DNA of 64,000 nucleotides from Bradymonadia bacterium. Lineage in GTDB: Bacteria; Myxococcota_A; Bradymonadia; UBA7976; UBA1532. Shown piece after piece: positions 23,569 through 54,811 of this stretch. The notes under the pieces were generated by a model. It was not told the origin of the DNA and made no database searches. It saw only the letters and a program-made list of their open reading frames with translations. The DNA is taken from positions 64,001-128,000 of the forward strand of contig JBKAGE010000075.1 of NCBI GenBank assembly GCA_046290225.1, in the 5' to 3' direction. A program made the translations under genes and the position numbers. Position 1 is the stretch's first letter. Every line of letters starts with the position of its first letter.

Positions 23569-23585
23569 TTTTGCTCCGGCGCTCC

Positions 23586-38951: not shown

Positions 38952-38961
38952 ATTGTAGAGT

Positions 38962-38998
38962 GGGGCGCCCGCGTTATGGTGCGGGCGCGCTCTTTTTT
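38962..38998 (+). terminator. Intrinsic terminator after flgE
   Basis: gcgcccgc/gcgggcgc stem followed by ctctttttt. Confidence 0.7.
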
Positions 38999-39020
38999 CA
39001 TCTAACTGTGTACCTGGCCC

Positions 39021-39186: not shown

Positions 39187-39216
39187 ATGGCTCCATCACA
39201 CATGTGAGGGGGGCAT

Positions 39217-39759
39217 CGAATTGGGGGTCGACGGAGGTGGTGGCTGGGCCTTTGTAGGCAGTTATCGCTTCGCTCTGACTGCGTAGGCGCCGGGCCTTCG
39301 GCAGCCCTGCGGGCCGCCTCGTCTGGCGCGTACACGTTCAGGCACCTGCTGACGCAGGCACCTTCCCGGGTAGGCAGGGTCGCTCAATGCTGACGCATTG
39401 ATTGCTCGCTCCCCTGCGTAAAGAGCTTCTTCTGTATCTCGTTGCTTAACCCCGCCGGGGTTCGGCCTACCGCGAACCTGAAAGCCTCTGAGTATGAACG
39501 CTAGGCGTAAGCCCCAACAGCGTTGGAAGCAGCACAAAGCCACACCAAAAGTGACTTTTTACGCAGGGGAGCGAGCGAATAAGGCGAAGCCTTGAGCGAC
39601 CCTGCCTACCCGGAGGCCTGCTCGCGCCAGCGAGCGTGCCGACGTGTACGCAGCTCCAAGGCGGGCCGCAGGCCGGCCGACAGAGCTGCCTACGCAGGCG
39701 GAGCGAAGCGACGACTGCCTACAAAGGCCCAGCCACCACCTCCATCACTCCCCAATTCG
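39217..39759. mobile_element. Long palindromic REP/REPIN-like element, copy 1
   Basis: About 200-bp imperfect inverted arms containing GTAGGC motifs, around a 135-bp core (39423-39557); homologous to 54298-54811; no transposase in the window, so mobility is inferred. Confidence 0.7.
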
Positions 39760-39782
39760 GCACTTGGCCAGTTCTCTCGTTC

Positions 39783-40517
39783 TCAGATGCGGGTGAGCAC
39801 CATCGTCCTCGGACCATCGAGGCTCTCCGGGCGGGGATCGCCTGGGCCACCGCTGGCGAAGTAGAGCTGATCACCTTCGATGTGCATGAGCGCGCCGGAG
39901 GCGATGCCCAGAGCAGGACCACAGACAGGGGTGATGTCTACGGGGAAGGGGGACTGTCCGCCGTGTACGGTGAGCTGGGCAGCGGAAATGGTGTCGAAAC
40001 CCTTGCGCACCACCATGAAGCCGTTGCCGAACAAGAAGCTCATCTTGCCCTGAGGGGTGTCCATGCTCCAGGCGCCAGCAAGGCCCGGTAGATCGGCGCT
40101 GGTGGCCTCGGGCTTGACGCCGGCGGGGCCCAAAGCGGTGAAGACAAAGGGATAGTCCGCAGGCCACCAGAGGGCCTCGTCTTCGCCAATGGAGACGCAG
40201 GCGACGACCCGGGCGTCCCCATGGGCATCGAGCACATCGCAGATGGCCTGCTTGCCTGCCTCGAGGTTGTGGATCGCGAAGAACAGGTTCATGGCTCCGG
40301 AGCCGAAATCAGAGCCATCCCCACTGCCAGCGGCGGATGTCTTCAGGGCTTGCTGAAGCTGGCCATAGAGCTGCTCGGCGAAGGCTTGATCGGCTTCGCT
40401 GTGCACCAGAATCTGCACACACAGATTCCCACTCTCACCGGTGGGGGCGGCCTGTGGTTCGCTCGGTGTCTCGGCAGGCTGTGCTTTGCCTTTGAGGAGG
40501 CGTGATAAAAAGCCCAT
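39783..40517 (-). CDS. Hypothetical two-domain protein
   Basis: MGFLSRLLK amphipathic start; C-terminal beta-rich domain (HIEGDQLYF...PRPESL); family not established. Confidence 0.65.
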   Translation of the reverse strand: MGFLSRLLKGKAQPAETPSEPQAAPTGESGNLCVQILVHSEADQAFAEQLYGQLQQALKTSAAGSGDGSDFGSGAMNLFFAIHNLEAGKQAICDVLDAHGDARVVACVSIGEDEALWWPADYPFVFTALGPAGVKPEATSADLPGLAGAWSMDTPQGKMSFLFGNGFMVVRKGFDTISAAQLTVHGGQSPFPVDITPVCGPALGIASGALMHIEGDQLYFASGGPGDPRPESLDGPRTMVLTRI

Positions 40518-40606
40518 TGCTTCAGTTCTCCCAATTCATCCGGTGTGCTGAGAGGCAGATAGGGCCATGAGTCAGTGGTTGAATCAACCTGAACTGTCAG
40601 GGGTTC

Positions 40607-42112
40607 CTACTGCACATCCACGTCGAAGCGGTCCCCCACGACGCCGCGCACGCGCAGCCAACTCACCCCGGGCTCCAACATCGCCTCGAAGCTGCATTGC
40701 TCCTCTGTGGTGCACGTGGCCAGCCCAACCTGCTCCACCTCTCGATTGCGGATCAGCGTCGCCTGAATCAGGCCGTCTCTTGCGCTCACTGTGAAGGTCA
40801 GCATCGTGGGTGTGTCCACGAACACGGGGATGTCGTGTATCCCTTCTTCGCAGTCCCAGATCACTGCCTCTGTGAGCGTCGACGGGGGCTCCAGTCGAGG
40901 TGTCTCTGCGTTCTCCGGGCAGTTCGGAGAGATCGAACGTGTCACCGCCAGGGTGTATGGCCCCTCGAAGAGCGGCTTCGTCGTCGCCACCACCGTATAG
41001 AGGCCCCCCTCGAGGTTCAGGGCCAGCTCGGGTCCGCTGCCGAAATACATCTCGTCGTCACCGAGCGGCGTCATGGGATCTCCGTCGACGTCGAGCACCG
41101 TAAGCCGGAGCTCTGTCCCGGGCTCGGCGCTCAGGTCGAAGCGGTGAAAGCCTGCTCTGCGGGTGGCAAAGGTGAAGACGTCTGCCCGGGCATCAGGGAA
41201 GCCCTCGTTGAACTGTAGCTCTGACGGATCACAGTCGTTGAGGTCGAAGCTGCCCATGATGGGGGTGTCCACCAGCACGTCACCATCGATGCCGCAGTCG
41301 GTGCGCCTCAGCTCAGCCTGGTACGCGTAAGCGCCGATGCCGCCGGCGAGCATCACCACATAGGGCCCTGGCATCAGGTCGAGCACCAGATCGTCACCCG
41401 CTTCGGCGATCCGTTGTCCGTCGTTGGCGGAGAACACCTGCGCTGTGGCCGCGAAGGCCTCCGAGCGAGTCGTGAGGGCGAGGGTGGAGAACTCCGCGGC
41501 GTCGAAGCGATACAGATCGACCGGGCCGCCGAGGAAGCAGCTCTCCGCCGTCAACATGCCCGATTGGAACTGGTCCGCTTCAGAGAGCACGAGATCGGGG
41601 AAGGGGGCGGCGCAGGGCTGCTCGAGGGCGAACGTGCCGCTCAAGGTGGAGCCTCCGGGGGTGCCCACCTGCAAACGGAACATCCCCGGACGTACACGCT
41701 CGAGCACGTGCACCAGGGCACCATCGTCACCGGCGACGCCCTCAGCGAAGACGTTGTCTCCGTCCAGCGCGAGCACAAAGGGGGTGCCCGGCGGCAGCCC
41801 CTCGCCGCGGATCACCAGGGTGGCCTCGCCGGTGATCAAGAAGTCACGTTGGATGCAGTCACCCATCAACTCGAAGGGGGTCTCGAAGGTGCCTATCTCG
41901 GGGCGCTCACACTCCAAACCCATGTCGGGTGTCAGCATCATGTCGCTCGGTGTCGGATTCATGTCGCTCGGCAGCCGGGCGTCGAGGGGGCCGGCATCTG
42001 CCGGGCCTGTGTCTGCGCTGGGCGCCGTGGCCGAGGTGTTGCTGTCGTCGCCACAGGCTGCGAGCAAGGTGAGCAGACCGCTCAGGGCCAGGGTGGGTCG
42101 CACGTTCGTCAT
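40607..42112 (-). CDS. Lipoprotein with repeated PPC-like beta-sandwich domains
   Basis: Lipobox LLAA-C; acidic Pro/Asp linker; DLYRF/DVFTF...PGPYVV/GLYTVV...YTL patterns. Confidence 0.7.
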   Translation of the reverse strand: MTNVRPTLALSGLLTLLAACGDDSNTSATAPSADTGPADAGPLDARLPSDMNPTPSDMMLTPDMGLECERPEIGTFETPFELMGDCIQRDFLITGEATLVIRGEGLPPGTPFVLALDGDNVFAEGVAGDDGALVHVLERVRPGMFRLQVGTPGGSTLSGTFALEQPCAAPFPDLVLSEADQFQSGMLTAESCFLGGPVDLYRFDAAEFSTLALTTRSEAFAATAQVFSANDGQRIAEAGDDLVLDLMPGPYVVMLAGGIGAYAYQAELRRTDCGIDGDVLVDTPIMGSFDLNDCDPSELQFNEGFPDARADVFTFATRRAGFHRFDLSAEPGTELRLTVLDVDGDPMTPLGDDEMYFGSGPELALNLEGGLYTVVATTKPLFEGPYTLAVTRSISPNCPENAETPRLEPPSTLTEAVIWDCEEGIHDIPVFVDTPTMLTFTVSARDGLIQATLIRNREVEQVGLATCTTEEQCSFEAMLEPGVSWLRVRGVVGDRFDVDVQ

Positions 42113-42227
42113 GCCTTTGTCTCCCGAGAAGCGCTCGCACATCGCAGAGCATTGCTGTCGAACTGGTCATACCACCACGGAGCACTCAGTGGCTCACGCT
42201 TCGGCCTGCCGACGCCGATGTAGAACT

Positions 42228-42243
42228 TGGAACACAATTCGCA
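42228..42243 (+). promoter_or_regulatory. Sigma54 -24/-12 promoter of the fliL operon
   Basis: TGGAAC-acaat-TCGCA with exact GG-N10-GC spacing, about 85 bp before fliL. Confidence 0.55.
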
Positions 42244-42326
42244 TCAGAAGATGTCATCAGAAGATGTCACCAAAAGTCGGCATCGATTCAGGTGTCGAGA
42301 CTGAGCAGGACATCGTTGGAGAGAAC

Positions 42327-42869
42327 ATGGCCGCGGACGAGACAGTAGAGAACGAAGAGGAAGGTGGGGGCAAAGGCGGGGGCAGCAAGCTCCTCATGAT
42401 CATGCTCCTGGTGAATACCCTGGGCCTCGGTGGCCTCGCTGCGTACGTCGTATTGGGTGGGGGCGGTGACGCCAGCGCCGCCGCGGAGACCGGTGACGTC
42501 GCCGAAGAGGCCCTTGAGCCTCCTGAAGAGATGGAGGACATGCCTGCGGCTGCCCCCGGGGCCACAGGCTTCGAGTACACCGATATGAAGGAGCTCGTGA
42601 TCAACCTCAACGAGCCCAGTGGTGATCGGTACCTCAAGACCAAGATCAACCTGCAACTCGACAGCGAAGAGACCAAAGCCGAGATCGACCTGCGCAAGAG
42701 CCAGATCAGATATCAGCTCAACGTGCTGCTCTCGGGCCAGCGCGTCGTCGACGTGCAGGGGCCCGAGAACATGGAGTCTCTGCGCAAGGCCATGGTGCGC
42801 CGGATCAACGCCAGCCTGTCGAAGGGGCGGGTTACGGGCGTTTGGATGGTGGACTGGATCGTTCAGTGA
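42327..42869 (+). CDS. fliL: Flagellar basal body protein FliL
   Basis: ATG 42327 (MAADETV); single TM; LVINLNEPSGDRYLK; upstream of fliM. Confidence 0.9.
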   Translation: MAADETVENEEEGGGKGGGSKLLMIMLLVNTLGLGGLAAYVVLGGGGDASAAAETGDVAEEALEPPEEMEDMPAAAPGATGFEYTDMKELVINLNEPSGDRYLKTKINLQLDSEETKAEIDLRKSQIRYQLNVLLSGQRVVDVQGPENMESLRKAMVRRINASLSKGRVTGVWMVDWIVQ

Positions 42870-42923
42870 CAGGTTCGAGGCTGTCAGTGCCTCTGATTTC
42901 ACCCTACGAAGACGAGAGGGCTC

Positions 42924-44024
42924 ATGTCTGAGCAGCTGCTGTCGCAGAACGAGATCGATGCTCTGCTCTCGGCGGTCAACGACGGCCAGATCGAGGATGA
43001 TCTCGACGGCGGAGATATGGGGGCCATGGGTGGCGGAGGCATGGAAGCCTCTGCCCCGGCCCTCGACGTGGTCAAATACGACCTGCTCAGCCAGGACCGC
43101 ATCATCCGCGGTCGCATGCCCACCCTCGACATCATCAATGATCGCTTCGCCCGCCAGCTGCGGGTGACGCTGTCGAACATGCTGCGCAAGATGATTCAGG
43201 TCTCGGTGGAGTCCACCAGCCTGATGAAGTACGGCGAGTTCCTGAACTACCTGCCCATCCCCAGCTGCCTGAACGTGGTGAAGATGGCCCCGCTGCGAGG
43301 GGCCTGCATCCTCGCCATGGAGGCCAAGCTCGTCTTCGCCTTTTTGAACAACTTCTTCGGAGGCAGCACCAACGCCCAGGAGCGTGTGGAAGGCCGAGAC
43401 TTCACAGCGATCGAGCTGATGGTCATCCGCAAGGTGGTGAAGTTCCTGCTCTCCGATCTCGAGAAGGCATGGAACCCGGTGTTTCCCCTGAAGGGGGAGC
43501 ACATCCGTACCGAGATCAACCCTCAGTTCCTCGCTGTGGTGCCACCCACCGAAGTGGTGGTGCTCACCAGCTACGAGCTCGACCTCGAAGACCTGCGGGG
43601 CACCCTGCAGGTGGTGGTGCCCTACAGCACCGTGGAGCCGATCCGGCACAACTTGTCGAGTGGTGCACAGGGTGAGGCCGAGGAGGAGGACGACTCCTGG
43701 CGGGATCAGATCGAGTACAACCTCGACGAGGTGCCCGTCGATGGCCGCGTGGAGCTCGGCCAGACCCAGATCACCGTGAGCGAGCTGCTCGAACTCGACG
43801 TGGGCCATGTCATCCCTTTGACGCAAGACGTCAACGCACCGTTGACCATGAAGGTGGCGGGACACCGCAAGTTCGAGGTAGAGCCTATGGTGAAGGGTGG
43901 CCACCTCGCGGCCCGGATCGTACGCCCTGTCTTGCCTCGGCCCGATCCAAAGGCCGAGCTAGCCCTGGAACACGACCCCAGCTTGAATGCTGGCACACCC
44001 CCTGCAATTCCACCCCCCCAGTGA
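42924..44024 (+). CDS. fliM: Flagellar motor switch protein FliM
   Basis: LSQNEIDALL CheY-binding motif; RDFTAIE; EINPQF. Confidence 0.96.
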   Translation: MSEQLLSQNEIDALLSAVNDGQIEDDLDGGDMGAMGGGGMEASAPALDVVKYDLLSQDRIIRGRMPTLDIINDRFARQLRVTLSNMLRKMIQVSVESTSLMKYGEFLNYLPIPSCLNVVKMAPLRGACILAMEAKLVFAFLNNFFGGSTNAQERVEGRDFTAIELMVIRKVVKFLLSDLEKAWNPVFPLKGEHIRTEINPQFLAVVPPTEVVVLTSYELDLEDLRGTLQVVVPYSTVEPIRHNLSSGAQGEAEEEDDSWRDQIEYNLDEVPVDGRVELGQTQITVSELLELDVGHVIPLTQDVNAPLTMKVAGHRKFEVEPMVKGGHLAARIVRPVLPRPDPKAELALEHDPSLNAGTPPAIPPPQ

Positions 44025-44040
44025 AGGAGGGATGCCTCAG

Positions 44041-44319
44041 ATGAGCCAGGAGCAGGTACAAGACATCGACTTTCTCTTCGATGTCGAACTCGAGGTGACG
44101 GTGGTGCTCGGCACCACTCGCATGCTCATCAGCGATCTGCTCAAGCTGGCAAACGGCTCGGTGGTGGAGCTCGACAAGCTCGCCGGCGAGTCTCTCGACA
44201 TTCTCGTGAACGACAAGGTCATCGCCCGAGGCGAGGCCGTCACCGTCAACGAGAAGTTCGGGGTCAGGCTCACTGAGATCATCTCCCCCATGGAGCGTAT
44301 CCGACAGCTCAAGGGCTGA
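44041..44319 (+). CDS. fliN: Flagellar motor switch protein FliN
   Basis: GSVVELDKLAGE...IARGEAVTVNEKFGVRLTEII; AGGAGG RBS; alternative start 44032. Confidence 0.95.
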   Translation: MSQEQVQDIDFLFDVELEVTVVLGTTRMLISDLLKLANGSVVELDKLAGESLDILVNDKVIARGEAVTVNEKFGVRLTEIISPMERIRQLKG

Positions 44320-44425
44320 TGCCCGAGCCCGGCGCGCTCGCAACCTGAACAACTGACGAATCGCCGAGGCGCCCCGGAACAGGGGAGCGCTCACCGGCGA
44401 GGTGCGACCTGCGGAGGTGAGGGTG

Positions 44426-46009
44426 ATGTCTGTGCGGCACAATGTGAGCGTAGCCCTGGGGGCGATGATGATGCTGCTCGCCGGTCTGGCGAGCGCCGAA
44501 GGCACCCTGCCCATGATCGACGGCGTCGATCATGTGGTGCACGCCGAGGGACGGACCTTCCGCTTCACGGCGGACCATCCCCTCACCGCAGAAGGGGCCG
44601 AGGCCTTCACCGATGGGGTGGTCCTCGGTCTGCGCTTGACCTCGGCGAAGGTCCGCAAGAGCTGGCCCGAGTTCGAAGACGCCCGCATCAACCGCACCCT
44701 GATGTTCCAGTCTCATCAGAAGGCCGACTCGGTGGTGCTCCGCGTGCGCTTCACCGACATCAAGGGGCTGCCCAAGTCCTTCGCGAAGAAGGTGCGCTTC
44801 GAGGTGCGCAAGGGGGCGGTGCTGGCCCACGTGCCCCCGCTGCCCGGTGAAGATCTCGCCGGCCTGGGGGTCTCGTCTGCCCGTGCCGTAGCCCACGTGA
44901 TGCCCGCCCCGGAGGTGGAGCCCGCGCTGCTGGTGAAAGCCCCTGAGCCCGCTGCGCCGGCGGTGGCGGTGAAAGCCGTCGATCCGGGGCCTGATCCGCT
45001 GCGGACCGAGAGTCGACCCACGATCAAGCCTGCTGTCGCCCCCACCGCTGGGGCCACGTTCCTCGCCCAGATCGACGCCCCGGAGCCGAAGGCGCCTGAG
45101 GCTGCCGACCCCGCACCGGTGGCTGAGGATGTACCTGCGAAGCCTGTGGTCGAGGTGCCCTCTGCGGAGACTCTTGCTGCAGAAGCATTGGAGACGCCCG
45201 CCGCTGCACCTGAGCTGGAGACCGCTGCGCCGGTGCGCCTCGAAGAGGCCCTCATCACCGAGCCGGAGACCCCTGCGAAGCTGCACGCCAACAACATCGG
45301 GGCCCAAGGGGAAGACCTGCCCTTCGACTGGTCCCTCATCGGGGTGCTCGCCTTTGCCCTCTTCGGCCTGTGGGGGGTGAAGAAGCTGCGCCGGCGTCAG
45401 CCCGGAGCCATCGATGGCCGCCTCATCAAGCCGCTGAGCAGCCATCTGCTCGGCCCCCGCCACGGGCTGCTCCTCGTGGACGTCGCCGGGGAGCACGTGT
45501 TGCTGGGCACCAGCGACAAGGGGGTGCAGATGCTCACCAAGATCAACCCCAACACCGACTCGGTGCGGGCCCTCGAGGCTGACTCCATCATGGTGGACCA
45601 CCCCACGCCCAAGGCCATCACTGACAAGCGCTCTGGCAAGGGGACCGCCAGCAAAGCCCGGGCGGCCTTCAGCCAGGTGCTCAACAGCGTCACCGGCCGG
45701 GTGCCCATGCTCGAAGACGACGAAGTGCCTGTGACCGAGCGCCCCGAGCGCCGGCCTCGGGCCACGGCGCCTCAGGTGTCGAAGGTGACCTCCACTGGGG
45801 GCAACACGACCCGCAGCGAGGACGATGCCCTGCTGGCCATGGCCGCCCAGGTTCAAGATGGTCTGACCAGCTCACAGAGCCGCAACACCGTCACCCGGGG
45901 GCCTCACACCCGCCCCATCGATCCCGTGGAGCTCCCCGAGGCCAACGGTGAAGAAGAGGGCGTCGCCGCCGATCTGCTCACCCGTATCCGCCAGTTGCAG
46001 GGCGCCTGA
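44426..46009 (+). CDS. fliO: Extended FliO-like protein
   Basis: Between fliN and fliP; TM followed by LGPRHGLLLVDVAGEHVLLGTS; large N-terminal exported domain and Pro/Ala linker. Confidence 0.8.
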   Translation: MSVRHNVSVALGAMMMLLAGLASAEGTLPMIDGVDHVVHAEGRTFRFTADHPLTAEGAEAFTDGVVLGLRLTSAKVRKSWPEFEDARINRTLMFQSHQKADSVVLRVRFTDIKGLPKSFAKKVRFEVRKGAVLAHVPPLPGEDLAGLGVSSARAVAHVMPAPEVEPALLVKAPEPAAPAVAVKAVDPGPDPLRTESRPTIKPAVAPTAGATFLAQIDAPEPKAPEAADPAPVAEDVPAKPVVEVPSAETLAAEALETPAAAPELETAAPVRLEEALITEPETPAKLHANNIGAQGEDLPFDWSLIGVLAFALFGLWGVKKLRRRQPGAIDGRLIKPLSSHLLGPRHGLLLVDVAGEHVLLGTSDKGVQMLTKINPNTDSVRALEADSIMVDHPTPKAITDKRSGKGTASKARAAFSQVLNSVTGRVPMLEDDEVPVTERPERRPRATAPQVSKVTSTGGNTTRSEDDALLAMAAQVQDGLTSSQSRNTVTRGPHTRPIDPVELPEANGEEEGVAADLLTRIRQLQGA

Positions 46010-46024
46010 GCCTCGGAGCCATCC

Positions 46025-46831
46025 ATGTACGCCCTCTCCCGGCGGCCGGCCATCTGGCTCGGCGCTCTGATTCTGGTCATGGTCGGCGTGAGCTTCGCCT
46101 TCGGGCAGGCCCCGGCGAACCCACCCCTCGAAGCCCCGGCGGGCACCATGAACCCCATGAGCTTCCCCGAGTTCGAACTCAAGATGGGCGGCGGCGAAGG
46201 GGACTGGGTGAGCACCCTGCGCATGTTGGGGCTCATCACCATACTCACCCTCGCCCCGGGCATCCTGCTCACCATGACCTGCTTTACCCGCATCGTCATC
46301 GTGATGAGCTTCATCCGCCAGGCCCTTGGTACTCAGCAGACTCCGCCGAACCAGGTGCTCATGGGGCTCTCGCTCTTCATGACCGTCTTCATCATGAGTC
46401 CGGTGATCTCCAAGGTGCATCAAGACGCCCTGGTGCCGTACATGGCGGAGACCATCTCTCAAGGTGAGGCCCTCGACCGGGCCGTGGCGCCTCTCAAGAG
46501 CTTCATGATGAAGGAGACCCGAGAGAAGGATCTCGCCCTCTTCGTCCAGGCCAGCGGGGCTCAATACCCACAGACCGTCAACGACGTGGGCATGATGCAG
46601 CTCGTGCCCGCCTTCGTGATCAGCGAGCTCAAGACCGCGTTCCAGATGGGCTTCATGATCTTCGTGCCGTTTCTGGTGCTCGACATGGTGGTGGCCTCGG
46701 TGCTCATGGCCATGGGCATGATGATGCTGCCCCCGGTGCTCATCTCGCTGCCCTTCAAGCTCATGCTCTTCGTGCTCGTCGACGGCTGGAATCTGCTCGC
46801 CGGCAGCCTCATCCGCAGCTTCACGGGATAA
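46025..46831 (+). CDS. fliP: Flagellar export gate protein FliP
   Basis: FTRIVIV, QQTPPNQV, PAFVISELKTAF, LPFKLMLFVLVDGW. Confidence 0.97.
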   Translation: MYALSRRPAIWLGALILVMVGVSFAFGQAPANPPLEAPAGTMNPMSFPEFELKMGGGEGDWVSTLRMLGLITILTLAPGILLTMTCFTRIVIVMSFIRQALGTQQTPPNQVLMGLSLFMTVFIMSPVISKVHQDALVPYMAETISQGEALDRAVAPLKSFMMKETREKDLALFVQASGAQYPQTVNDVGMMQLVPAFVISELKTAFQMGFMIFVPFLVLDMVVASVLMAMGMMMLPPVLISLPFKLMLFVLVDGWNLLAGSLIRSFTG

Positions 46832-46834
46832 ACC

Positions 46835-47104
46835 ATGACCATCGACTATGTGGTGGGGTTCTTCTACGAGGCCCTCAAGGTGGCCGCTCAGTTGTCCATG
46901 CCTGCATTGTTGCTGGGCCTCAGCGTGGGCCTGATGGTGTCGATCTTCCAGGCGGTCACCCAGATCAACGAGCAGACCCTGACCTTGATCCCCAAGATCG
47001 TGGCCATCGTCACGGGGTTGATGGTCTTCGGCCACTGGATGCTCCAGCGCCTGATCACCTTTGCCGGCGACGTCATCGGCAACCTGCACACCCTGCCGGG
47101 CTGA
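46835..47104 (+). CDS. fliQ: Flagellar export gate protein FliQ
   Basis: FQAVTQINEQTLTLIPK. Confidence 0.96.
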   Translation: MTIDYVVGFFYEALKVAAQLSMPALLLGLSVGLMVSIFQAVTQINEQTLTLIPKIVAIVTGLMVFGHWMLQRLITFAGDVIGNLHTLPG

Positions 47105-47108
47105 GCTG

Positions 47109-47921
47109 TTGAGCACGCTGGAGGCGATTACCCCCTTTGCCACGGCGTTGGGGCTGGCCACCACCCGCATCGGGGCCTTGATGATGGCCTCGCCGATCTT
47201 TCAGTCCGCCAGCATCCCCAGCAGGCTCAAGGGGGCCCTCACCATGGTGCTGGCCATCCTGGTGGTGCTCAAGTCCGGGCCGCTGTATCCGGTGACCCCC
47301 AGCGGCGTGCTCGTCGATTCGATGGACGGCGCGTTCCTGCTGTCGGCGGTGGCTCGTGAGCTGATGGCTGGCGCCCTCATGGGCCTCGCGGCGACGGTGA
47401 CCTTCTCGGCGATCCAGATGACCGGTGAGACCATGGGTGTGCAGATGGGCTTCTCGGTGGCCAACGTCATCGATCCCACCACGCGCCAGCAGAACGGTCT
47501 CATCACTCAGCTGCTCAACCTCATGGCGGTGCTGATCTTCCTCGCCGTCGATGGTCACCTGTTCCTGCTCAAGGCCTTGTTCGACAGCTTCGACGTGGTG
47601 CCCCTCGCTCAGGTTGCGCCCGATCTCGGCGCCCTCATGGAGATCTTCCTCACCATGGGCACACGGCTGTTCTCGCTGGGTTTGAACATGGCCCTGCCGG
47701 TGATCTGCGTGGTGCTCTTCGTGAATGTGGGCTTGGCCCTCTCGATGCGGGCGGTGCCCCAGATCAACATCTTCGCCGTGGGCTTCATCTTGTCCATCGG
47801 CCTGGGCCTCGTGGTCCTGATGCAAGCCCTGCCCTCTGAAGGCGGGGCCATCGCCCACGTCATCGAAGAGGCCGTGTCATCGGCCGCTCAGGTGGTGCCG
47901 CTCCTCGGAGAGCAGCGGTGA
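47109..47921 (+). CDS. fliR: Flagellar export gate protein FliR
   Basis: QMGFSVANVIDP, DGHLFLL, RAVPQINIF; TTG start assumed. Confidence 0.93.
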   Translation: MSTLEAITPFATALGLATTRIGALMMASPIFQSASIPSRLKGALTMVLAILVVLKSGPLYPVTPSGVLVDSMDGAFLLSAVARELMAGALMGLAATVTFSAIQMTGETMGVQMGFSVANVIDPTTRQQNGLITQLLNLMAVLIFLAVDGHLFLLKALFDSFDVVPLAQVAPDLGALMEIFLTMGTRLFSLGLNMALPVICVVLFVNVGLALSMRAVPQINIFAVGFILSIGLGLVVLMQALPSEGGAIAHVIEEAVSSAAQVVPLLGEQR

Positions 47922-48988
47922 GCGAAGGCGGCGGGGGAGAACGCACAGAAAAGGCGACGCCCAAGCGTCGGGAGGACGCACGAAAAAAAGGTGATGTGGC
48001 CCGATCACGCGATGTGGCCACGGTGCTCATCGTCTTCGCGGGCTTCACCTACCTGACCCTCTTCGGAGGCCGACTGCGAGAAGGGGTCTCGTCGCTGATT
48101 CGAAGGTGTTTTGGCGAGCTCGAGGGCCCATTGAAGTCCTCGGATGCATTCATCGAGTTCACTGGGGAGATCGTGGCCCTCATGGCGGGCTGGCTGGCGC
48201 CGCTCTTCGGCGGGGTGGTTTTGCTGGCGATCCTGGGCAACGTGGCCCAGGTGGGCTGGCTGATCACCTTCGAGCCCCTCAAGCCCGATCTCACCAAGCT
48301 CAACCCGCTGCCGAACCTGAAGAACATTTTCTTCAGCAAGCGCACCCTCGGGAACCTCGTGACCAACGTGGCCAAGGTGACGGTGGTGGCCTCGGTGGTG
48401 GCCCTCACCATCCGCTCCGACGCTGAGAGCATCGCGGTGCTCTCGCAGATGCCCCTCATGGCGGGCATGGAGACGATCTTGTCCACGGTGCTGCAGCTCA
48501 TGCTCAACACGGGCCTGGCCCTCATCGCCATCGCTGGGGCTGACTTCGCGTGGAACAAGTACCTCTACGAAGAGAAGCTCAAGATGAGCAAACACGACGT
48601 GAAGGAGGAGGCGAAGGAGCAGGAAGGCAACCCGCTCATGAAGGGCGCCCGCATGCGCCGGGCCCGGGAGCTTTCCAACAACCGCATGATGCAGGCGGTG
48701 CCCGAGGCCGACGTCGTGCTCAACAACCCCACCCACCTGTCAATCGCCCTGCGCTACCGCCAAGGGGTTGACGCTGCACCGGTGGTGGTGGCGAAGGGGG
48801 CCGACCTCGTGGCGATGCGGATTCGCCGCATTGCCGCAGCGAACGACGTGCCCATGCTCGAGGACAAACCCCTGGCACGGTTGTTGTTTAAGAGATGTGA
48901 GGTCGGTCAGGCGGTGCCCGAAGAGGTGTACCGGGCTGTGGCCGAAGTTCTCGCGTACGTGTACCAGCTGAAAGGCAAGACCGGCTGA
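47918..48988 (+). CDS. flhB: Flagellar export protein FlhB
   Basis: TEKATPKR, EGNPLMK, NPTH autocleavage motif. Confidence 0.96.
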   Translation: MSEGGGGERTEKATPKRREDARKKGDVARSRDVATVLIVFAGFTYLTLFGGRLREGVSSLIRRCFGELEGPLKSSDAFIEFTGEIVALMAGWLAPLFGGVVLLAILGNVAQVGWLITFEPLKPDLTKLNPLPNLKNIFFSKRTLGNLVTNVAKVTVVASVVALTIRSDAESIAVLSQMPLMAGMETILSTVLQLMLNTGLALIAIAGADFAWNKYLYEEKLKMSKHDVKEEAKEQEGNPLMKGARMRRARELSNNRMMQAVPEADVVLNNPTHLSIALRYRQGVDAAPVVVAKGADLVAMRIRRIAAANDVPMLEDKPLARLLFKRCEVGQAVPEEVYRAVAEVLAYVYQLKGKTG

Positions 48989-51138
48989 TGGCAGCAGTGG
49001 AAAGCACGGGCATTCGCCAACAACTCTCCGGCATGTGGTTTGCCGGCGGGGTGGTGGGATTGCTCTTGCTGATGGTGGTCGAGCTGCCCACCTTCCTGCT
49101 CGACGCACTGCTCGCCCTCAACCTCACCATCGCCCTCGTAGTGCTCGTGGTCGCCATCTACCTGAAGCGGCCCCTCGACTTCTCTGGCTTCCCCGCTGTG
49201 TTGTTGCTCACCACCTTGTTCAGGCTGTGTTTGAACGTGGCGTCGACCCGCTTGATTCTGCTCAAGGGCAAGGATCAGGGAGAGGCCGCAGGGCAGATCA
49301 TCCAGGCCTTCGGAGAAAAGGTTGTGGGTGGTAACTATGTGGTGGGCATCATCATCTTCATCGTGCTGATCATCATCAACTTCATGGTCATCACCAAAGG
49401 CTCTGGCCGCATCGCCGAGGTGGGGGCCCGCTTCACCCTCGACGCCATGCCCGGCAAGCAGATGGCCATCGACGCCGATCTCAACGCCGGCCTCATCACC
49501 GAAGACGAAGCCAAGCAGCGGCGCCGCGACGTGGAGCGCGAGGCGGACTTCTACGGGGCGATGGACGGTGCCTCGAAGTTCGTGCGCGGTGACACCATCG
49601 CCGGCATCTTGATCACCTTCATCAACATCATCGGCGGCTTCATCGTGGGCACTGCCCAGCTCGGCATGGACGCCGGCGACGCCGCCGAGACCTTCACCAT
49701 GCTCACCGTGGGTGACGGCCTCGTGAGCCAGATCCCCTCGCTGGTCATCTCCACCGCCGCGGGCATCATCGTCACCCGCGCCGCAGGCACCGCCGATCTG
49801 GGCTCGGAGCTCGGCAAGCAGCTCACGGGAAACGACAAGGTGCTCAAGCTGGTGGCGGGCATCTTGTTGCTCATGATCTTTGCGGGTGGCATGCCCTTCT
49901 TCACCTTCGGTGCCATCGCTGCGGGCCTCTTCTGGCTCGCGACCCGCATGAACAAGCCCACTGAAGAAGAGGCTGCTGGCTCTACTGGTGGCGGTGAAGG
50001 CGCTGCTGCCCTGGGTGGCACCACTGAAGAGGCGCCCCAGGTGAGCGACGAGGAGCGCATCGCTGGCATGCTGCCCATCGACCAGCTCGAGCTGCACGTG
50101 GGCTATGGCCTCATCGGCATCGTCGATCCCGCTCAGGGCGGCGACATGGTGGAGCGCATCCGGCGGATGCGGGAGCAGTTCGCCCTGGAGATGGGTGTGA
50201 TTCTGCCTCCGGTGCACATCCGCGACGACCTGCAGCTCGCCCCCGACGAGTACCGCCTGCTCATCAAGGGGGTCTCCGCCGCCGAGGGTGAGCTGATGCC
50301 CAGCAAGATGATGATGCTGGTGCCTGATCCTGCAGAGGCCCCTCAAATCGAAGGGGTGCCCACCATGGAGCCGGCCTTCGGCATGGCCGCTCGCTGGATC
50401 GATCCCCAAGATCAGGAAGAGGCCGAGGGCATGGGCTACACGGTGGTGGAAGGCACCACCGTCGTGGCCACCCACATCGGCGAGGTGCTGCGCAAGAACG
50501 CCCACGAGCTCGTGGGCCGCACCGAGGCACAGCGCCTGGTGGACATCCTCTCGGAGCGGCACCCCAAGCTGGTTGAGGCCCTGATCCCCAACAAGGTGGA
50601 CCTGGGCGATCTGGTGAAGGTCATCAAGAACCTGCTCATCGAGCAGGTGAGCGTGCGAGATCTGCGCACGATCCTCGAGGCCATGGCGGACTTCCCCAAC
50701 ATCAAGAGCCCCGAGGTCCTCGCAGAGTGTGTGCGCCAGCGCCTGAACAAGGTGCTCTCCGCCACGTTGCGGGGCCCCGACGGTGTGGTGCACGTGCTCC
50801 AGATGGACGGCGCCATGGAGGGCCACCTGCGGGGGGCCCTGAAGCAAATCGACAACGATCTGCACTTTGTGATCGACCCGGCGATTCATCAGGCGGTGGT
50901 GGAGCAGGCCGCCGAGGGCGCCGGGCACATGCAGGCCTGCGACTGGATGCCGGTGTTGATCACCGCCCCAGAGCTGCGGCGGGCCATGAGCAACCTGCTC
51001 ACCCCCTACATCGACGGGCTGAGGGTGATCTCCACTCGGGAGATCGCGCCGGGGGTCGAGGTGAACAGTGAAGGCATCATCGGTGGCGGCATCCCCCTGC
51101 CGCCCATGGCAGAGGGCATGCCCCAAGGGCTGAGGTAA
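48988..51138 (+). CDS. flhA: Flagellar export protein FlhA
   Basis: ARFTLDAMPGKQMAIDADL, FYGAMDGASKFVRGD, SVRDLRTILE. Confidence 0.97.
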   Translation: MAAVESTGIRQQLSGMWFAGGVVGLLLLMVVELPTFLLDALLALNLTIALVVLVVAIYLKRPLDFSGFPAVLLLTTLFRLCLNVASTRLILLKGKDQGEAAGQIIQAFGEKVVGGNYVVGIIIFIVLIIINFMVITKGSGRIAEVGARFTLDAMPGKQMAIDADLNAGLITEDEAKQRRRDVEREADFYGAMDGASKFVRGDTIAGILITFINIIGGFIVGTAQLGMDAGDAAETFTMLTVGDGLVSQIPSLVISTAAGIIVTRAAGTADLGSELGKQLTGNDKVLKLVAGILLLMIFAGGMPFFTFGAIAAGLFWLATRMNKPTEEEAAGSTGGGEGAAALGGTTEEAPQVSDEERIAGMLPIDQLELHVGYGLIGIVDPAQGGDMVERIRRMREQFALEMGVILPPVHIRDDLQLAPDEYRLLIKGVSAAEGELMPSKMMMLVPDPAEAPQIEGVPTMEPAFGMAARWIDPQDQEEAEGMGYTVVEGTTVVATHIGEVLRKNAHELVGRTEAQRLVDILSERHPKLVEALIPNKVDLGDLVKVIKNLLIEQVSVRDLRTILEAMADFPNIKSPEVLAECVRQRLNKVLSATLRGPDGVVHVLQMDGAMEGHLRGALKQIDNDLHFVIDPAIHQAVVEQAAEGAGHMQACDWMPVLITAPELRRAMSNLLTPYIDGLRVISTREIAPGVEVNSEGIIGGGIPLPPMAEGMPQGLR

Positions 51139-51142
51139 CGAG

Positions 51143-52528
51143 ATGGAGTCGACCCACAACTTCCGTGGCCGCACCATGAGCGAGGCGGTGGCCCGCCTCA
51201 AGGCGTCTCTGGGCCCCGAGGCCGTGATCATCCAGACCCGACGCGGTCGAGACACGGATGGCACCTTCGTGGAGATCACCGCGAGAGGCCCCCAGGAGCC
51301 GGCGATGGCCGGCCCGGGCTCCGGCGCTGCGGCCTATCGGCGCATGGAGAAGGTCACCGCCCCCGCGGCGACCCCTCGTCGCCAGCCTGGCCGGGAGGCG
51401 GCCCGCACGTCGGACCAGAGCATCGGCCTGGCCAAGGCCCGGGAGATGGCCGCCCGCATCGCCCCCGAGGTGAGCGCCCGCAACCCCGAGCTCGCTCGAC
51501 GCCTCGAGGCCCTCAAGGGGGGCGCGCCCACCGGCGTGCCCGGCCCGCTCAGCCGAGCTGCAGGCATCACTGAAGCCGCAGCGGCGCCTCAGCCCACAGC
51601 CCAGCACGCACCCTCTCGTAATGTCGCCGCCGTGAGCAGCGGAGAGACCGATCGCCTCAAGGCCCTGGTCGATGTCTTCGCCAGCAAAGTAGAGGCCTTC
51701 GAGGCCCGCCTGGCGGAGCAGGAGGGGGGTACGGTGAAGCGTCTGGCCCACATGCTCAACGAGGTGGGCATCAGCCGGGCCCACGCCGAGGCCCTCGCCC
51801 GGCGAGCCAGCGAGCGTTGCCCGGGCTGCACGCCCGAAGACGGCGCACTGCTCGCAGCCCTTGGCCGCGAGATGGCCGACAGCATGCCCGTGAGCGGCGA
51901 TCTGCTGCCGGCACCGGGTGCCCGCCGCGTGCTGGCCTTCGTGGGCCCCACGGGGGTGGGCAAGACCACCACCATCGCCAAGATCGCCGCTCGGGCGGCT
52001 TTGATGGAGGGCCGCACCGTGGCCCTCATCACCGTGGACACGTTCCGCATGGCCGCTGTGGAGCAGCTCGCCAGCTACGCACGGATTCTCGAGTGCCCAC
52101 TGCGCATTGCCCGCGACGCCGGAGAGCTGAAGGCCGCCCTCGAGGCATTCTCTGATCGCGATCTGGTCCTCGTGGACACCACGGGGCGCAGCCCCAGGGA
52201 TACCGAGCACGTGAGCGCCCTCGGCGGCTTCTTCCCCGAAGGGTGGGGGGGCTCGCTGGTGCTCACGGTGTCGAGCAGTACGCGAGAGCGCGACATGTTC
52301 GCCGCCGTCGACGCCTATGGCCAGCTGGGGGTGGAGACTCTGTGCGTCACCAAGCTCGACGAGACCGACGCCCCCGGCGCGGTCTACAGCGCCGTGCGCC
52401 GCGCCGGCCGCCCTCTGGCGTGGGTCACCACCGGCCAGCGCGTGCCCGAAGATCTCGAGCAGGCCGAGGCGGCTCCGCTCTCTGCCCGCATCGTCGCGCG
52501 GGCGTCCACGTTGAGGCAGGCAGCATGA
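51143..52528 (+). CDS. flhF: SRP-type GTPase FlhF
   Basis: GPTGVGKTTT, DTFR, DTTGR, TKLDE, GQRVPEDL. Confidence 0.93.
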   Translation: MESTHNFRGRTMSEAVARLKASLGPEAVIIQTRRGRDTDGTFVEITARGPQEPAMAGPGSGAAAYRRMEKVTAPAATPRRQPGREAARTSDQSIGLAKAREMAARIAPEVSARNPELARRLEALKGGAPTGVPGPLSRAAGITEAAAAPQPTAQHAPSRNVAAVSSGETDRLKALVDVFASKVEAFEARLAEQEGGTVKRLAHMLNEVGISRAHAEALARRASERCPGCTPEDGALLAALGREMADSMPVSGDLLPAPGARRVLAFVGPTGVGKTTTIAKIAARAALMEGRTVALITVDTFRMAAVEQLASYARILECPLRIARDAGELKAALEAFSDRDLVLVDTTGRSPRDTEHVSALGGFFPEGWGGSLVLTVSSSTRERDMFAAVDAYGQLGVETLCVTKLDETDAPGAVYSAVRRAGRPLAWVTTGQRVPEDLEQAEAAPLSARIVARASTLRQAA

Positions 52529-52598
52529 AGGCGTTACCAGGACTTCGTCATACGGCTTCGTCTGTACGTTCAGTTCACGTTGACTGCCAGAGGGACCG

Positions 52599-53516
52599 AT
52601 GAACAACCATAAGGCAAACGTGATCCCCTTATGGGGCCACACAACAGATCAGGCATCGACGCTCCGACGGCTCGCCGGCGGGGCCTCGGCGCCTGTGGGA
52701 GACAGACGCAGGATGCGCATTCTCTCGGTCACCAGCGGAAAGGGTGGGGTGGGCAAGACCAGCCTCACCTGCAACCTCGCGACCCGTCTCGGTCAGATGG
52801 GCCAGAAGGTGCTCGTCGTCGACGCCGACATGGGCCTCGCCAACGTCGACATCGTCATGGGCATCAAGCCCAAGGCCACCTTGGAGCAGCTCTTCAGCGA
52901 TGAAGAGCGGCGCCTCGAAGACATCCTCGTTGACGGGCCGCCGAACGTCACGGTGCTGCCTGCAGGCTCCGGCGTGCGAGATCTCGTACATCTGAGCGAA
53001 GGGCAGGTGCTGAAGTTCCTCGAGGCCTTCGACACCCTCGAGGAGACCTTCGACTTCACCCTCATCGACACCGGGGCGGGCATCGGCAGCAACGTGCTGT
53101 ACTTCAACGCCGCAGCTCAGGACGTCCTCGTGGTGGCCACCCCGGAGCCCACCTCGATGACCGACGCCTACGCCACGATGAAGGTGCTCCACCAGACCCA
53201 CGGCCTGAAGCGTTTCACCTTGTTGGTGAACGCCGTGGAAGATCGCAAGGAGGCCCTCGACGTCTACCGCCGCCTCACCGGTGTGGCCGACAAGTACCTC
53301 GACATCTCCATCGACTATCTGGGCCACGTGCTCCGCGACAACCGCGTGGGCCGGGCCATCATGGAGCGAGGTCTCTTCATCGATCGCTACCCCGACAGCG
53401 AGTCCGCCCGGTGCATCGCCGAGATCGCCGAGCGTCTGATGGAAGACACCGAGGCCCGGCCGCCCACGGGGAACCTGCAGTTCTTCTGGCGACGCCTCTT
53501 GTCTGCGGGAGCGTGA
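52599..53516 (+). CDS. flhG: MinD-like ATPase FlhG/FleN
   Basis: DQASTLR; SGKGGVGKT; DADMGLANVD; PEPTSMTDAYA. Confidence 0.93.
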   Translation: MNNHKANVIPLWGHTTDQASTLRRLAGGASAPVGDRRRMRILSVTSGKGGVGKTSLTCNLATRLGQMGQKVLVVDADMGLANVDIVMGIKPKATLEQLFSDEERRLEDILVDGPPNVTVLPAGSGVRDLVHLSEGQVLKFLEAFDTLEETFDFTLIDTGAGIGSNVLYFNAAAQDVLVVATPEPTSMTDAYATMKVLHQTHGLKRFTLLVNAVEDRKEALDVYRRLTGVADKYLDISIDYLGHVLRDNRVGRAIMERGLFIDRYPDSESARCIAEIAERLMEDTEARPPTGNLQFFWRRLLSAGA

Positions 53517-53523
53517 GTCAGCC

Positions 53524-54285
53524 GTGAACCCTGCCCTGCGCCGATACGGCTCCAAGGCCTACCAGAAAGGTCGCCAGGAGAGCCGCCGGGATGCCCTGCT
53601 GAGGGCCCACGCGCCCTTGGTCCGCAAGGTGGCGTGGCGCATGATCCACCGCGTGCCCAGCTCGGTGGACATCGACGATCTGATCTCGGTGGGTACTCTG
53701 GGCCTCCTGCAGGCCATCGATCACTTCGACGAGTCGAAGGGCACCCGCTTCGAGTCCTTTGCGGAGTTCCGCATCAAGGGGGCGATGCTCGACGAGCTGC
53801 GATCTTGTGATCACATGTCTCGTACGGCCCGCGGTCGCATCAACCAGATCGAGAAGGCCCGAGCAAAGCTCGAGGCAGACCTGGGGCGCGCGCCAAAGGT
53901 GACGGAGATCGCCGAGGTGGTGGAGCTGCCCGCGGACGAGGTGGCCCGCCTGCTGGCAGAAGACGAGAACACCACCTTCATGACGCTCGACGACATGACG
54001 CCGGTGGCTGCAGAGCAGACCGAGTCGCTCTCGGAGCTGGCGGCCCAGGGTGGCAGCCACGGAGATCCCTTCGGCACCCACCTGGCGCGGGAGCTCAAGG
54101 CGGCCCTGGCTGCGGAGATCGGCAAGCTGCCGGATCGTCTGCAGCTGGTCCTGTCGCTGTACTACGAGCAGAGCCTCAATCAGAAAGAGATCGCCGCAGT
54201 GCTCGACCTGACGGAGTCGCGCATCAGCCAGCTGCACAGCGAGGCGGTGAAGATTCTCCGGCGTCGGATGCAGCGCCTCGTTTGA
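53524..54285 (+). CDS. fliA: Flagellar sigma factor sigma28
   Basis: DDLISVG, RIKGAMLDELR, LSLYY...TESRISQLH. Confidence 0.95.
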   Translation: MNPALRRYGSKAYQKGRQESRRDALLRAHAPLVRKVAWRMIHRVPSSVDIDDLISVGTLGLLQAIDHFDESKGTRFESFAEFRIKGAMLDELRSCDHMSRTARGRINQIEKARAKLEADLGRAPKVTEIAEVVELPADEVARLLAEDENTTFMTLDDMTPVAAEQTESLSELAAQGGSHGDPFGTHLARELKAALAAEIGKLPDRLQLVLSLYYEQSLNQKEIAAVLDLTESRISQLHSEAVKILRRRMQRLV

Positions 54286-54297
54286 CCTTCAGAGTGT

Positions 54298-54811
54298 GTC
54301 TGTTGTGGCTGGGCCTTGGTAGGCAGTCATCGCTTCGCTCCGCCTGCGTAGGCGCCGGGCCTTCGGCAGTCCTTCGGACCGCCTCGTCTGGCGCGTACAC
54401 GTTCAGGCATCCGCTTGCGCGGACACCCTTCCGGGTAGGCAGGGTCGCTCAATGCTGACGCATTGATTGCTCGCTCCCCTGCGTAAAAAGTCAGTTTTGG
54501 TGTGGCTCTGCACTGATTCCGGTGCTGCTGGGGCTTTCGCCGAGCCTTGGGGCTCAGAGGCTTGCAGGTTCGCGGTAGGTCGAATCCCGGCGGGGTTCAG
54601 CAACGAGATACAGAAGAAGCTCTTTACGCAGGGGAGCGAGCGAACAGGGCGAAGCCTTGAGCGACCCTGCCTACCCGGAGACCTGCTCGCGCCAGCGAGT
54701 ACGTCGACGTGTACGCGCCAGACGAGGCGGTCCGAAGGACTGCCGAAGGCCCGGCGCCTACGCAGGCGGAGCGCAGCGACGACTGCCTACCAAGGCCCAG
54801 CCACAACAGAC
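54298..54811. mobile_element. Long palindromic REP/REPIN-like element, copy 2 (core inverted relative to copy 1)
   Basis: Arms collinear with 39217-39759; core 54488-54622 is the reverse-complement homolog of 39423-39557; lies between convergent fliA and fliJ. Confidence 0.7.

What the first reader, a model, noticed from the sequence alone, without database searches (positions are those of the whole stretch)
39217..54811. Two ~0.5-kb palindromic elements whose 135-bp core is flipped relative to the arms
Seen: copies at 39217-39759 and 54298-54811 have distinguishable arms. The left arm carries caatgctgacgcattgattg and the right arm carries gcgaa..ggcgaagccttg, and both copies keep this left-right order. 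The cores (39423-39557 and 54488-54622) are both 135 bp and about 85% identical by manual count, but they are in opposite orientation. The switch points fall in a perfect 19-bp inner inverted repeat, GCTCGCTCCCCTGCGTAAA (39404-39422/39558-39576 and 54469-54487/54623-54641). Whole-element inversion cannot produce this, because it would swap the arms too. Established: GTAG-initiated palindromes (GTAGGC occurs three times per arm) are typical of REP sequences handled by RAYT HUH transposases. Inference: this is a non-autonomous element with two isomers, made by site-specific inversion or by hairpin-based replication/repair like parvoviral flip/flop termini. It is the strongest candidate in the window for an undescribed system. 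No recombinase or transposase is encoded here.
Basis: partly seen in the sequence, partly recalled or inferred. Interest (0 to 1): 0.85.

Follow-up and report, generated by a model that had tools for sequence, protein, structure and literature searches.

The report
Shuffled-hairpin palindrome family, not a switch
The two mirror-image stretches are real, but they are two of about 50 copies of a gene-less bacterial repeat whose arms are built from interchangeable small DNA hairpins; the flipped middle is a minority arrangement that likely came from ordinary exchange between the arms, not from a dedicated on/off switch, and the enzyme that spreads the repeat was not found.

Summary
Observation confirmed: cores are 85% alike and in opposite orientation inside a perfect 19-bp inverted repeat. 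The two-isomer reading is not supported. The genome holds about 50 copies (35 complete ones typed). Each arm is four GTAG/GTAC-led hairpin units with interchangeable alleles. Against the two outer modules the core is canonical 22:5 and 23:4, not 1:1. A sister family with a homologous core shows 0 of 27 reversed. Linkage breaks between all modules and inside the core, so the 19-bp repeat is no special site. What stays odd: facing modules of one copy differ far more often than chance (86 of 105 against 68), while the outer ends are homogenised. Loops are mostly GNA/GNNA DNA mini-hairpins. One copy encloses a frameshifted four-helix-bundle gene. No RAYT/Y1 or IS110 transposase was found, and no recombinase sits within the arms. 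Verdict: an oversized REPIN/BIME-like variant; mobiliser unknown. The scan noted this family, its sisters and four-helix-bundle cassettes before, on other DNA.

The parts
39217..39759 (.). Element A: long imperfect palindrome between convergent genes (flgE and an unknown ORF); module code A-P-T | core | A-R-B (canonical polarity)
39217..39253 (+). A left outer end (U0): degenerate, ragged terminal tract, matched to the right end of the same copy
39254..39282 (+). A left unit 1 (GTAG-led; GNA mini-hairpin on the opposite strand)
39283..39329 (+). A left unit 2, allele class A
39330..39369 (+). A left unit 3 (GTAC-led), allele P
39370..39422 (+).
39423..39557 (+). A core, 135 bp, non-coding, itself a mosaic; homologous to the core of a sister family with unrelated arms
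39558..39609 (-). A right unit 4, allele A; includes the 19-bp inner repeat 39558-39576
39610..39649 (-). A right unit 3, allele R
39650..39693 (-). A right unit 2, allele class B
39694..39759 (-). A right unit 1 (39694-39722) and outer end
54298..54811 (.). Element B: between convergent fliA and fliJ; read along the core its code is A-R-A | core | T-Q-A (unit 3 reversed, unit 2 the same on both arms)
54298..54487 (+). B left arm: outer end 54298-54318, U1 54319-54347, U2 54348-54394 (A), U3 54395-54434 (Q), U4 54435-54487 (T; 19-bp repeat 54469-54487)
54488..54622 (-). B core, reversed relative to A; 96% identical to the core of another reversed copy (C70:43785)
54623..54811 (-). B right arm: U4 54623-54674 (A; 19-bp repeat 54623-54641), U3 54675-54714 (R), U2 54715-54761 (A, identical to the left U2), U1 54762-54790, outer end to 54811

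Best explanation
The two elements are copies of a genome-wide, gene-less palindromic repeat family whose arms are strings of four hairpin modules with interchangeable alleles, and the flipped core of copy B is a minority arrangement that likely arose by host-mediated exchange between the inverted arms (template switching at the fork or homologous crossover), not by a dedicated invertase. SHOWN: about 50 copies; modular mosaic arms and core; one dominant core polarity; facing inner modules differ more often than chance; outer ends of one copy are matched; loops are mostly GNA/GNNA; collapsed core-less derivatives exist; one copy encloses a frameshifted four-helix-bundle (PF05635/TIGR02436) gene. 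INFERRED: the working form is a folded single strand, a rod with a paired terminal stem and mini-hairpins pushed out where facing modules differ. Copies with unlike facing modules are favoured, while arm-to-arm copying keeps the ends complementary. The family likely spreads as such a folded single strand, as proposed for REPINs/BIMEs. The enzyme is not identified: it is either a lost or unassembled RAYT, or whatever moves four-helix-bundle cassettes, of which this may be the emptied form.
For: Copy number: 45 core hits, 54 arm loci, 41 facing GTAG pairs of which 35 are 466-474 bp. Modules: 80 of 82 arms typed, 35 complete elements; 14 three-module combinations seen; unit 4 independent of side and of units 2 and 3. 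Four-gamete incompatibility between neighbouring units at 11-22 bp. Distance matrices of the segments are nearly uncorrelated, the two core halves included (rho -0.06), except the two outer ends of one copy (rho 0.50). Polarity 22:5 and 23:4; sister family 21 of 27 canonical, 0 reversed. Unlike facing modules at 86 of 105 junctions against 68.2 permuted, reached in 0 of 20000 permutations. Perfect outer extension of 20 bp or more in 10 of 35 copies against 0.2% of between-copy pairs. GNA/GNNA loops: 77 of 77 matched in U1, 65 of 80 in U3, 75 of 79 in U4; four different stems stay paired in 67 of 70 U2 hairpins. Such loops give very stable DNA mini-hairpins, less stable as RNA (PMC13037366, passages). 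Template switching gives both arm homogenisation and spacer inversion (PMC8604942, passages). All intergenic by a crude gene caller; 19 of 41 between convergent genes against 9% background. Four-helix-bundle cargo.
Against: One assembly, no reads of the source strain: no event was observed, and no empty site was seen. Copies are related, so the p-values overstate independent events (two reversed copies share a 179-bp tract). Reversed pairs are enriched (p=0.004 for unit 2, 0.043 for unit 3), but inversion and a filter for unlike modules both predict that. The spacer inversions in PMC8604942 are 2-5 bp, in yeast, against 135 bp or more here. The longest perfect stem in units 2-4 is not shorter than in permuted pairs (31.1 against 31.1), so simple avoidance of long palindromes does not explain the unlike-module rule. 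Side hairpins in both arms appear in the predicted fold of only 28 of 35 copies; a lone arm folds no better than shuffles (z -0.18). No mobilising enzyme was found, and the core shows no four-helix-bundle remnant. No leading/lagging bias by local GC skew (19 against 18).
Confidence: 0.62

Rival explanations
1. RAYT (TnpA-REP)-driven cut-and-join: an HUH Y1 transposase, lost or missing from this assembly, cleaves and rejoins the GTAG-led single-stranded units, which makes the mosaics, the flips and new copies. The family would then be an orthodox, oversized REPIN/BIME.
For: GTAG-led bulged palindromes in inverted pairs, heterodimers and intergenic placement match REP dimers (PMC3733652, passages). 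TnpA-REP exchanges strands between REP substrates in vitro and may capture genes (PMC3333891, passages). Y1 genes occur in 9 of 27 same-family genomes.
Against: No PF01797 or NF047646 match in a 99.4% complete assembly (controls rang in 6 and 8 of 14 genomes). No tblastn hit with 25 Y1 proteins from relatives. The 12 relative Y1 loci checked show no arms of this design. Exchange also occurs inside units and inside the GTAG-free core.
Confidence: 0.2
2. One reading: a site-specific invertase, or hairpin-primed flip/flop replication, turns the core at the 19-bp repeat and gives two isomers.
For: The 19-bp repeat is perfect in both window copies and highly conserved. Reversed copies recur in at least three core lineages. 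The genome has 7 tyrosine-recombinase genes (8 matches) and 1 serine recombinase. By the unit 4 marker alone orientation looks even.
Against: Core orientation is far from 1:1 against units 2 and 3. Core-only inversion cannot explain copies in which unit 3 is reversed against both unit 2 and the core (C34:110052), nor three unit 4 alleles in all pairings. The sister family with a homologous core shows 0 of 27 reversed. None of the recombinases lies within arms; the nearest, 2.7 kb away, is XerC-like. Core orientation is unrelated to flanking gene direction (9 same, 8 opposite).
Confidence: 0.08
3. Assembly artefact: short-read assembly mixed parts of different copies.
For: Draft of 83 contigs; several copies sit at contig ends; 25 of 41 copies share an exact stretch of 100 bp or more with another place, 6 of 41 share 150 bp or more. 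Read length and assembler are unknown.
Against: Allele combinations are incompatible at 11-22 bp spacing, which single reads span. Longest exact repeats are 117 bp in A and 92 bp in B. B's flanks are both flagellar genes of one cluster. Reversal recurs in several copies. Random chimeras would not give the excess of unlike facing modules or locus-private matched ends.
Confidence: 0.04
4. RNA-level element: kept as a transcript hairpin (terminator or stabiliser) at gene 3' ends; shuffling and flips are neutral by-products.
For: Strong bias to convergent gene ends, depletion between divergent genes (4 of 41 against 26%). The core has a GNRA-type loop on one strand.
Against: Arm loops are three-base GNA loops suited to DNA. 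The core folds no better than shuffles as RNA (z 0.26). No Rfam match over the element. flgE already has two T-tailed hairpins before element A. The placement bias is also what tolerated insertions give.
Confidence: 0.06

Closest known systems
REPINs / BIME-1 / GTAG REP heterodimers with RAYT (TnpA-REP) (PMC3116915, PMC3733652, PMC3333891, PMC8266576; passages read)
   Same: GTAG 5' of bulged palindromes; inverted pair round a conserved-length spacer; intergenic, multi-copy, lineage-specific; unlike partners common; internal deletions give collapsed palindromes.
   Different: About 470-540 bp with four nested units per arm, where REPs are 20-50 nt; discrete interchangeable hairpin alleles; ragged, locus-homogenised ends up to about 60 bp beyond the first GTAG; no RAYT found; the only cargo seen is a four-helix-bundle gene.
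Four-helix-bundle (PF05635 / TIGR02436, 23S rRNA IVS-type) genes enclosed by inverted repeats
   Same: One family copy and one sister-family copy enclose the genome's only two PF05635 genes; 18 of 27 tested loci in other genomes of the class are also enclosed by inverted repeats.
   Different: In relatives the arms are mostly inverted runs of short tandem repeats, not hairpin modules; most copies here are empty, and the core is not a recognisable remnant of the gene. No paper found.
Quasi-palindrome template switching (PMC8604942, passages read)
   Same: Gives arm homogenisation and spacer inversion without a dedicated enzyme.
   Different: Documented there for spacers of 2-5 bp in yeast; it does not by itself explain spread or the excess of unlike inner modules.
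Invertons (FimB/E, Hin) and parvoviral flip/flop termini (recalled, no call)
   Same: A segment between inverted repeats occurs in two orientations.
   Different: No linked recombinase or Rep gene; not 1:1; the arms are not fixed; elements are internal chromosomal repeats, not genome termini.
Bacterial MITEs (definition in PMC3733652, passage read)
   Same: Non-coding, terminal inverted repeats, multi-copy.
   Different: Arms of about 170-200 bp against 15-30 bp; ragged ends without a fixed terminus; no matching autonomous IS found.

Membership tests
REPIN/BIME with RAYT | GTAG tetranucleotide 5' of an imperfect palindrome | tested here: met
   Three GTAG-led units and one GTAC-led unit per arm
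REPIN/BIME with RAYT | Mostly inverted pairs round a spacer of conserved length | tested here: met
   82 of 96 unit 1 starts are in 41 facing pairs; 35 of 41 are 466-474 bp
REPIN/BIME with RAYT | Multi-copy and extragenic | tested here: met
   41 of 41 pairs overlap no called gene; crude caller, which also missed the broken cargo gene
REPIN/BIME with RAYT | Cognate RAYT (Y1 HUH) gene flanked by the repeats in the same genome | tested here: not met
   No match; draft assembly 99.4% complete, so loss from the assembly is not excluded
REPIN/BIME with RAYT | ssDNA binding, cleavage and strand transfer by TnpA-REP | not testable with these tools
   Needs biochemistry
Site-specific inverton | Fixed flanks with one segment in two orientations, crossover confined to the inverted repeat | tested here: not met
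   Arms are mosaics; exchange at every module boundary and inside the core
Site-specific inverton | Linked or cognate recombinase | tested here: inconclusive
   None adjacent or enclosed; XerD, an XerC-like gene and six other recombinases exist and could act in trans
Site-specific inverton | Both orientations at one locus within a population | not testable with these tools
   Only contigs of two other samples were offered; none bridges either site
Parvovirus-like flip/flop termini (recalled) | Two isomers at about 1:1 | tested here: not met
   22:5 and 23:4; sister family 0 of 27 reversed
Four-helix-bundle inverted-repeat cassette | PF05635/TIGR02436 gene enclosed by the arms | tested here: met
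   Met for 1 of 41 pairs (C77:107024-107840, frameshifted); not for the two window copies
Four-helix-bundle inverted-repeat cassette | Empty core derived from the cassette interior | tested here: not met
   A profile of 19 four-helix proteins hits only the two cargo copies; the core profile hits none of 65 loci from other genomes
MITE (DDE-mobilised) | Short fixed terminal repeats and target-site duplication | tested here: inconclusive
   Ends are ragged, so no fixed terminus; target duplication was not scored and no empty site was available

The most novel reading that the evidence does not exclude
These are the emptied, amplified forms of four-helix-bundle gene cassettes: an undescribed class of mobile DNA that travels as a branched single-stranded rod, needs unlike mini-hairpins facing each other at its junctions, rebuilds its arms from a shared module pool, and moves without an HUH, DDE or site-specific recombinase of its own.
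Probability: 0.2. Interest if true: 0.8.

Novelty: new variant of a known kind. Interest (0 to 1): 0.45.

Why it matters
It removes a tempting false lead: a 'flipped core' seen in two copies is not a phase-variation switch. What remains is a measurable rule inside a repeat family: matched outer ends, unlike inner modules, free shuffling. That is a natural mutagenesis map of what a folded ssDNA substrate must look like. If the four-helix-bundle link holds, it ties a large protein family of unknown function to mobile palindromes and makes testable how REP-like repeats spread in a genome with no RAYT.

Tried and rejected
Rfam over 38900-40000: 4 weak matches, none on the element. Wider distribution: blastn in 30 relatives gave only 28-43 bp hits in 3; unit 1 pattern in 0 of 112 other genomes of the class. 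A 19-mer gave 1 hit in genome contigs (L023, not read), 2 in metagenome contigs that are not elements on reading, 0 in viral contigs. No match in plasmids or phages; no relative of the cargo protein in viral contigs. Enzymes: IS110 PF02371 absent with controls ringing; IS91 PF04986 rang nowhere, so uninformative. The two reverse transcriptases are type XIII retron RTs; a collapsed copy lies between them, which I read as the convergent-gap preference, not a link. Sequencing runs: no RNA holder listed; two DNA runs of one study with small shares, contigs only; they hold short contigs like the right arm with other module letters, and no contig bridges either site. Idea that the outer tract is a pre-existing genomic target: rejected, 65 of 69 profile hits adjoin a family arm (62 directly, 3 one base off). 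Idea that the core's 5' side keeps longer ends: not significant (19 of 35, p=0.14). Strand bias: none. Core as a coding remnant: no hit. The control for (0 of 200 random windows) used a stricter cut-off (40 bits) than the test (E 1e-3) and came from the own genome, so the contrast is overstated for the weakest hits; only the best locus per genome was tested and 2 of 31 were dropped at contig ends. Literature searches for four-helix-bundle genes with repeats gave 0 papers and 2 listed (one passage of PMC10907252 read, unrelated). 10.1101/119735 passages added nothing specific. No supplements were read.
Full report
1. Observation. The cores match at 85.2% over 135 bp in opposite orientation. The 19-bp inner repeat occurs exactly four times in the window, and 0 of 100 shuffles give that. 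Element A lies between flgE and an unknown ORF, element B between fliA and fliJ; both gaps are convergent and lie in a flagellar gene cluster.

2. The family. The window is G000:C75:64001-128000 of an 8.58-Mb, 83-contig assembly, 99.4% complete. The core has 45 hits and the arms 54 loci. There are 96 outermost GTAG units; 82 form 41 facing pairs, 35 of which are 466-474 bp long. The six others are collapsed forms (109, 129, 308, 444 bp), one with an insertion in the core (644 bp) and one with a different cargo (817 bp). None overlaps a gene called by my crude caller; 19 of 41 lie between convergent genes against 9% of background gaps. The unit 1 pattern is absent from 112 other genomes of the class. 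Short contigs in two runs of one study resemble the right arm but carry other module letters.

3. Anatomy. Each arm has a ragged, degenerate outer tract of up to about 60 bp (U0), then four units led by GTAG, GTAG, GTAC and GTAG, ending in the 19-bp repeat. Units 2, 3 and 4 come in discrete alleles (A/B; P/Q/R; T/A/G). I aligned 82 arms, typed 80, and kept the 35 elements with both arms typed; two arms were dropped, one foreign and one deleted. Each allele keeps its own small hairpin: four different stems stay paired in 67 of 70 unit 2 hairpins. On the strand ending in CTAC the loops are GNA or GNNA in 77 of 77 matched U1, 65 of 80 U3 and 75 of 79 U4 hairpins. GCGNAGC and GCGNNAGC are very stable DNA mini-hairpins and are less stable as RNA (PMC13037366, listing and passages). 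I infer selection on a single-stranded DNA fold. Element A folds as a rod with side hairpins at unit 4 (z -17.6); 28 of 35 copies show side hairpins in both arms on at least one strand. A lone arm, and the core as RNA, fold no better than shuffles.

4. Is the core a switch? It has three alleles, spread 11/12/12 on the core's 5' side and 8/13/14 on its 3' side (p=0.72), and is unlinked to units 2 and 3 (p=0.39, 0.81). Only 10 of 35 copies have the T/A pair, split 4 to 6, so by that marker both orientations are common; but the marker is not an arm label. Units 2 and 3 are polar: 22 canonical to 5 reversed, and 23 to 4, with 8 uninformative each (p=0.0015 and 0.0003 against 1:1). Copy A is canonical. 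Copy B is reversed at unit 3 and has the same unit 2 on both arms. One copy has unit 3 reversed against both unit 2 and the core, which no single inversion gives. A sister family of GTAG-led arrays has a homologous core (profile hits; shared boxes visible); its innermost module is canonical in 21 of 27 oriented copies and reversed in none. Linkage is near background across each module boundary and decays with distance inside the core too; the two core halves give uncorrelated distances. So the 19-bp repeat is one of several constant stretches, not a special site. Copies are related, so these tests overstate independent events: B and C70:43785 have 96% identical cores, and two reversed copies share 179 bp. 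Reversals still fall in at least three core lineages of a weakly supported tree.

5. The pattern that remains. Within one copy the outer ends are more alike than chance: a perfect extension of 20 bp or more in 10 of 35 against 0.2% between copies (column-wise). The inner modules are less alike than chance: 86 of 105 junctions unlike, against 68.2 in permutations that keep each side's allele counts, reached in 0 of 20000; unit 4 alone is alike in 4 of 35 against 11.7. The longest perfect inner stem is not shortened, so plain avoidance of palindromes is not enough. No two copies are identical; the best pair is 97%.

6. Artefact check. Longest exact repeats are 117 bp in A and 92 bp in B; 6 of 41 copies have one of 150 bp or more. 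Chimeras between copies cannot be excluded without reads, but incompatible allele combinations at 11-22 bp spacing, locus-private matched ends and the unlike-module excess are not what mis-joins make.

7. Enzyme. No Y1/RAYT by two profiles, with controls ringing, nor by tblastn with 25 Y1 proteins from relatives (one of 26 could not be extracted). No IS110. The eight recombinase genes include XerD and an XerC-like gene; none is enclosed by arms. The two RTs are type XIII retron enzymes. The genome's only two PF05635 genes are both enclosed by long palindromic arms: one, frameshifted near residue 45, by this family, the other by a sister family. In other genomes of the class 18 of 27 tested PF05635 loci are enclosed by inverted repeats, mostly short tandem runs; 0 of 200 random windows were, at a stricter cut-off. 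The empty core is not a detectable remnant of that gene.

8. Mechanism. Shown: mosaic modules, polar core, matched ends, unlike inner modules, DNA-type loops. Established: template switching between inverted arms homogenises them and inverts spacers (PMC8604942, passages); REP doublets are proposed to move as hairpins (PMC3116915, passages); TnpA-REP needs GTAG plus a bulge and exchanges strands in vitro (PMC3333891 and PMC8266576, passages); heterodimers are common among GTAG repeats (PMC3733652, passages). Inferred: arms exchange modules within and between copies by host processes; nested inversions such as B's are an occasional outcome; the folded single strand with a paired end and branched inner junctions is what is selected and probably what moves. 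Confidence 0.62. Rivals: a missing RAYT does the shuffling (0.2), a dedicated switch (0.08), an RNA role (0.06), artefact (0.04).

9. Novelty. It works like a REPIN/BIME but fails the cognate-RAYT test in this assembly, so I do not file it as a member. It is not an inverton. My searches found no paper on four-helix-bundle genes in repeat arms, in an open-access library only. Earlier scan notes describe this family or its sisters in the same genome and four-helix-bundle cassettes in other genomes; I take them as leads, not support. One note names the host as an uncultured Bradymonadia bacterium; I did not check this. Verdict: new variant of a known kind, interest 0.45; most novel reading (emptied four-helix-bundle cassettes moving without a known transposase) probability 0.2, interest 0.8 if true.

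Noticed in passing
window 11999-12310: A copy of a second palindrome family with (GGGCAC)n arms round a core of about 190 bp; 44 members in the strict inverted-repeat survey.
   Followed up: partly
window 23575-24000: Composite stretch: a hairpin of a third family (23586-23725) followed by a single (GGGCAC)n arm at 23954-23990.
   Followed up: no
L022 (G000:C72:82266-83361): Sister-family arms of 316 bp, 96% complementary, with an internally duplicated unit, enclosing a four-helix-bundle gene with no stop inside the match.
   Followed up: partly
L096 (G000:C79:178175-181443): Two type XIII retron RT genes, convergent, at least one preceded by a SWIM-domain gene, with a collapsed 50-bp copy of this family in the gap.
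   Followed up: partly
L097 (G000:C36:153145-154952): Inverted arms of another family enclose three small genes, one of the small multidrug resistance family (PF00893), and a part-duplicate of the downstream gene end.
   Followed up: partly
L099 (G000:C50:55559-57127): A DDE transposase (PF01609) sits inside a (GGGCAC)n element; probably an IS that landed in the core, not the family's mobiliser; ends not mapped.
   Followed up: partly
G000:C75:188936-189255 and C82:48468-48787: Hybrid elements: one arm of this family, the core, and an arm of a different family on the other side.
   Followed up: partly
G000:C34:360948-361130: About 175 bp inserted in a core, with its own terminal inverted repeats (MITE-like).
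   Followed up: no
G000:C14:29027-29224: A truncated arm closed by an inverted copy of its own outer tract, a direct sign of fold-back copying of the ends.
   Followed up: no
L028:1402-2786: In a relative, a Y1 transposase gene between 30-bp terminal inverted repeats starting GGGGTC, like the TIRtrons of PMC3733652.
   Followed up: no
window 38960-39190: Two T-tailed hairpins between the flgE stop and element A, so A is not needed as the terminator.
   Followed up: no
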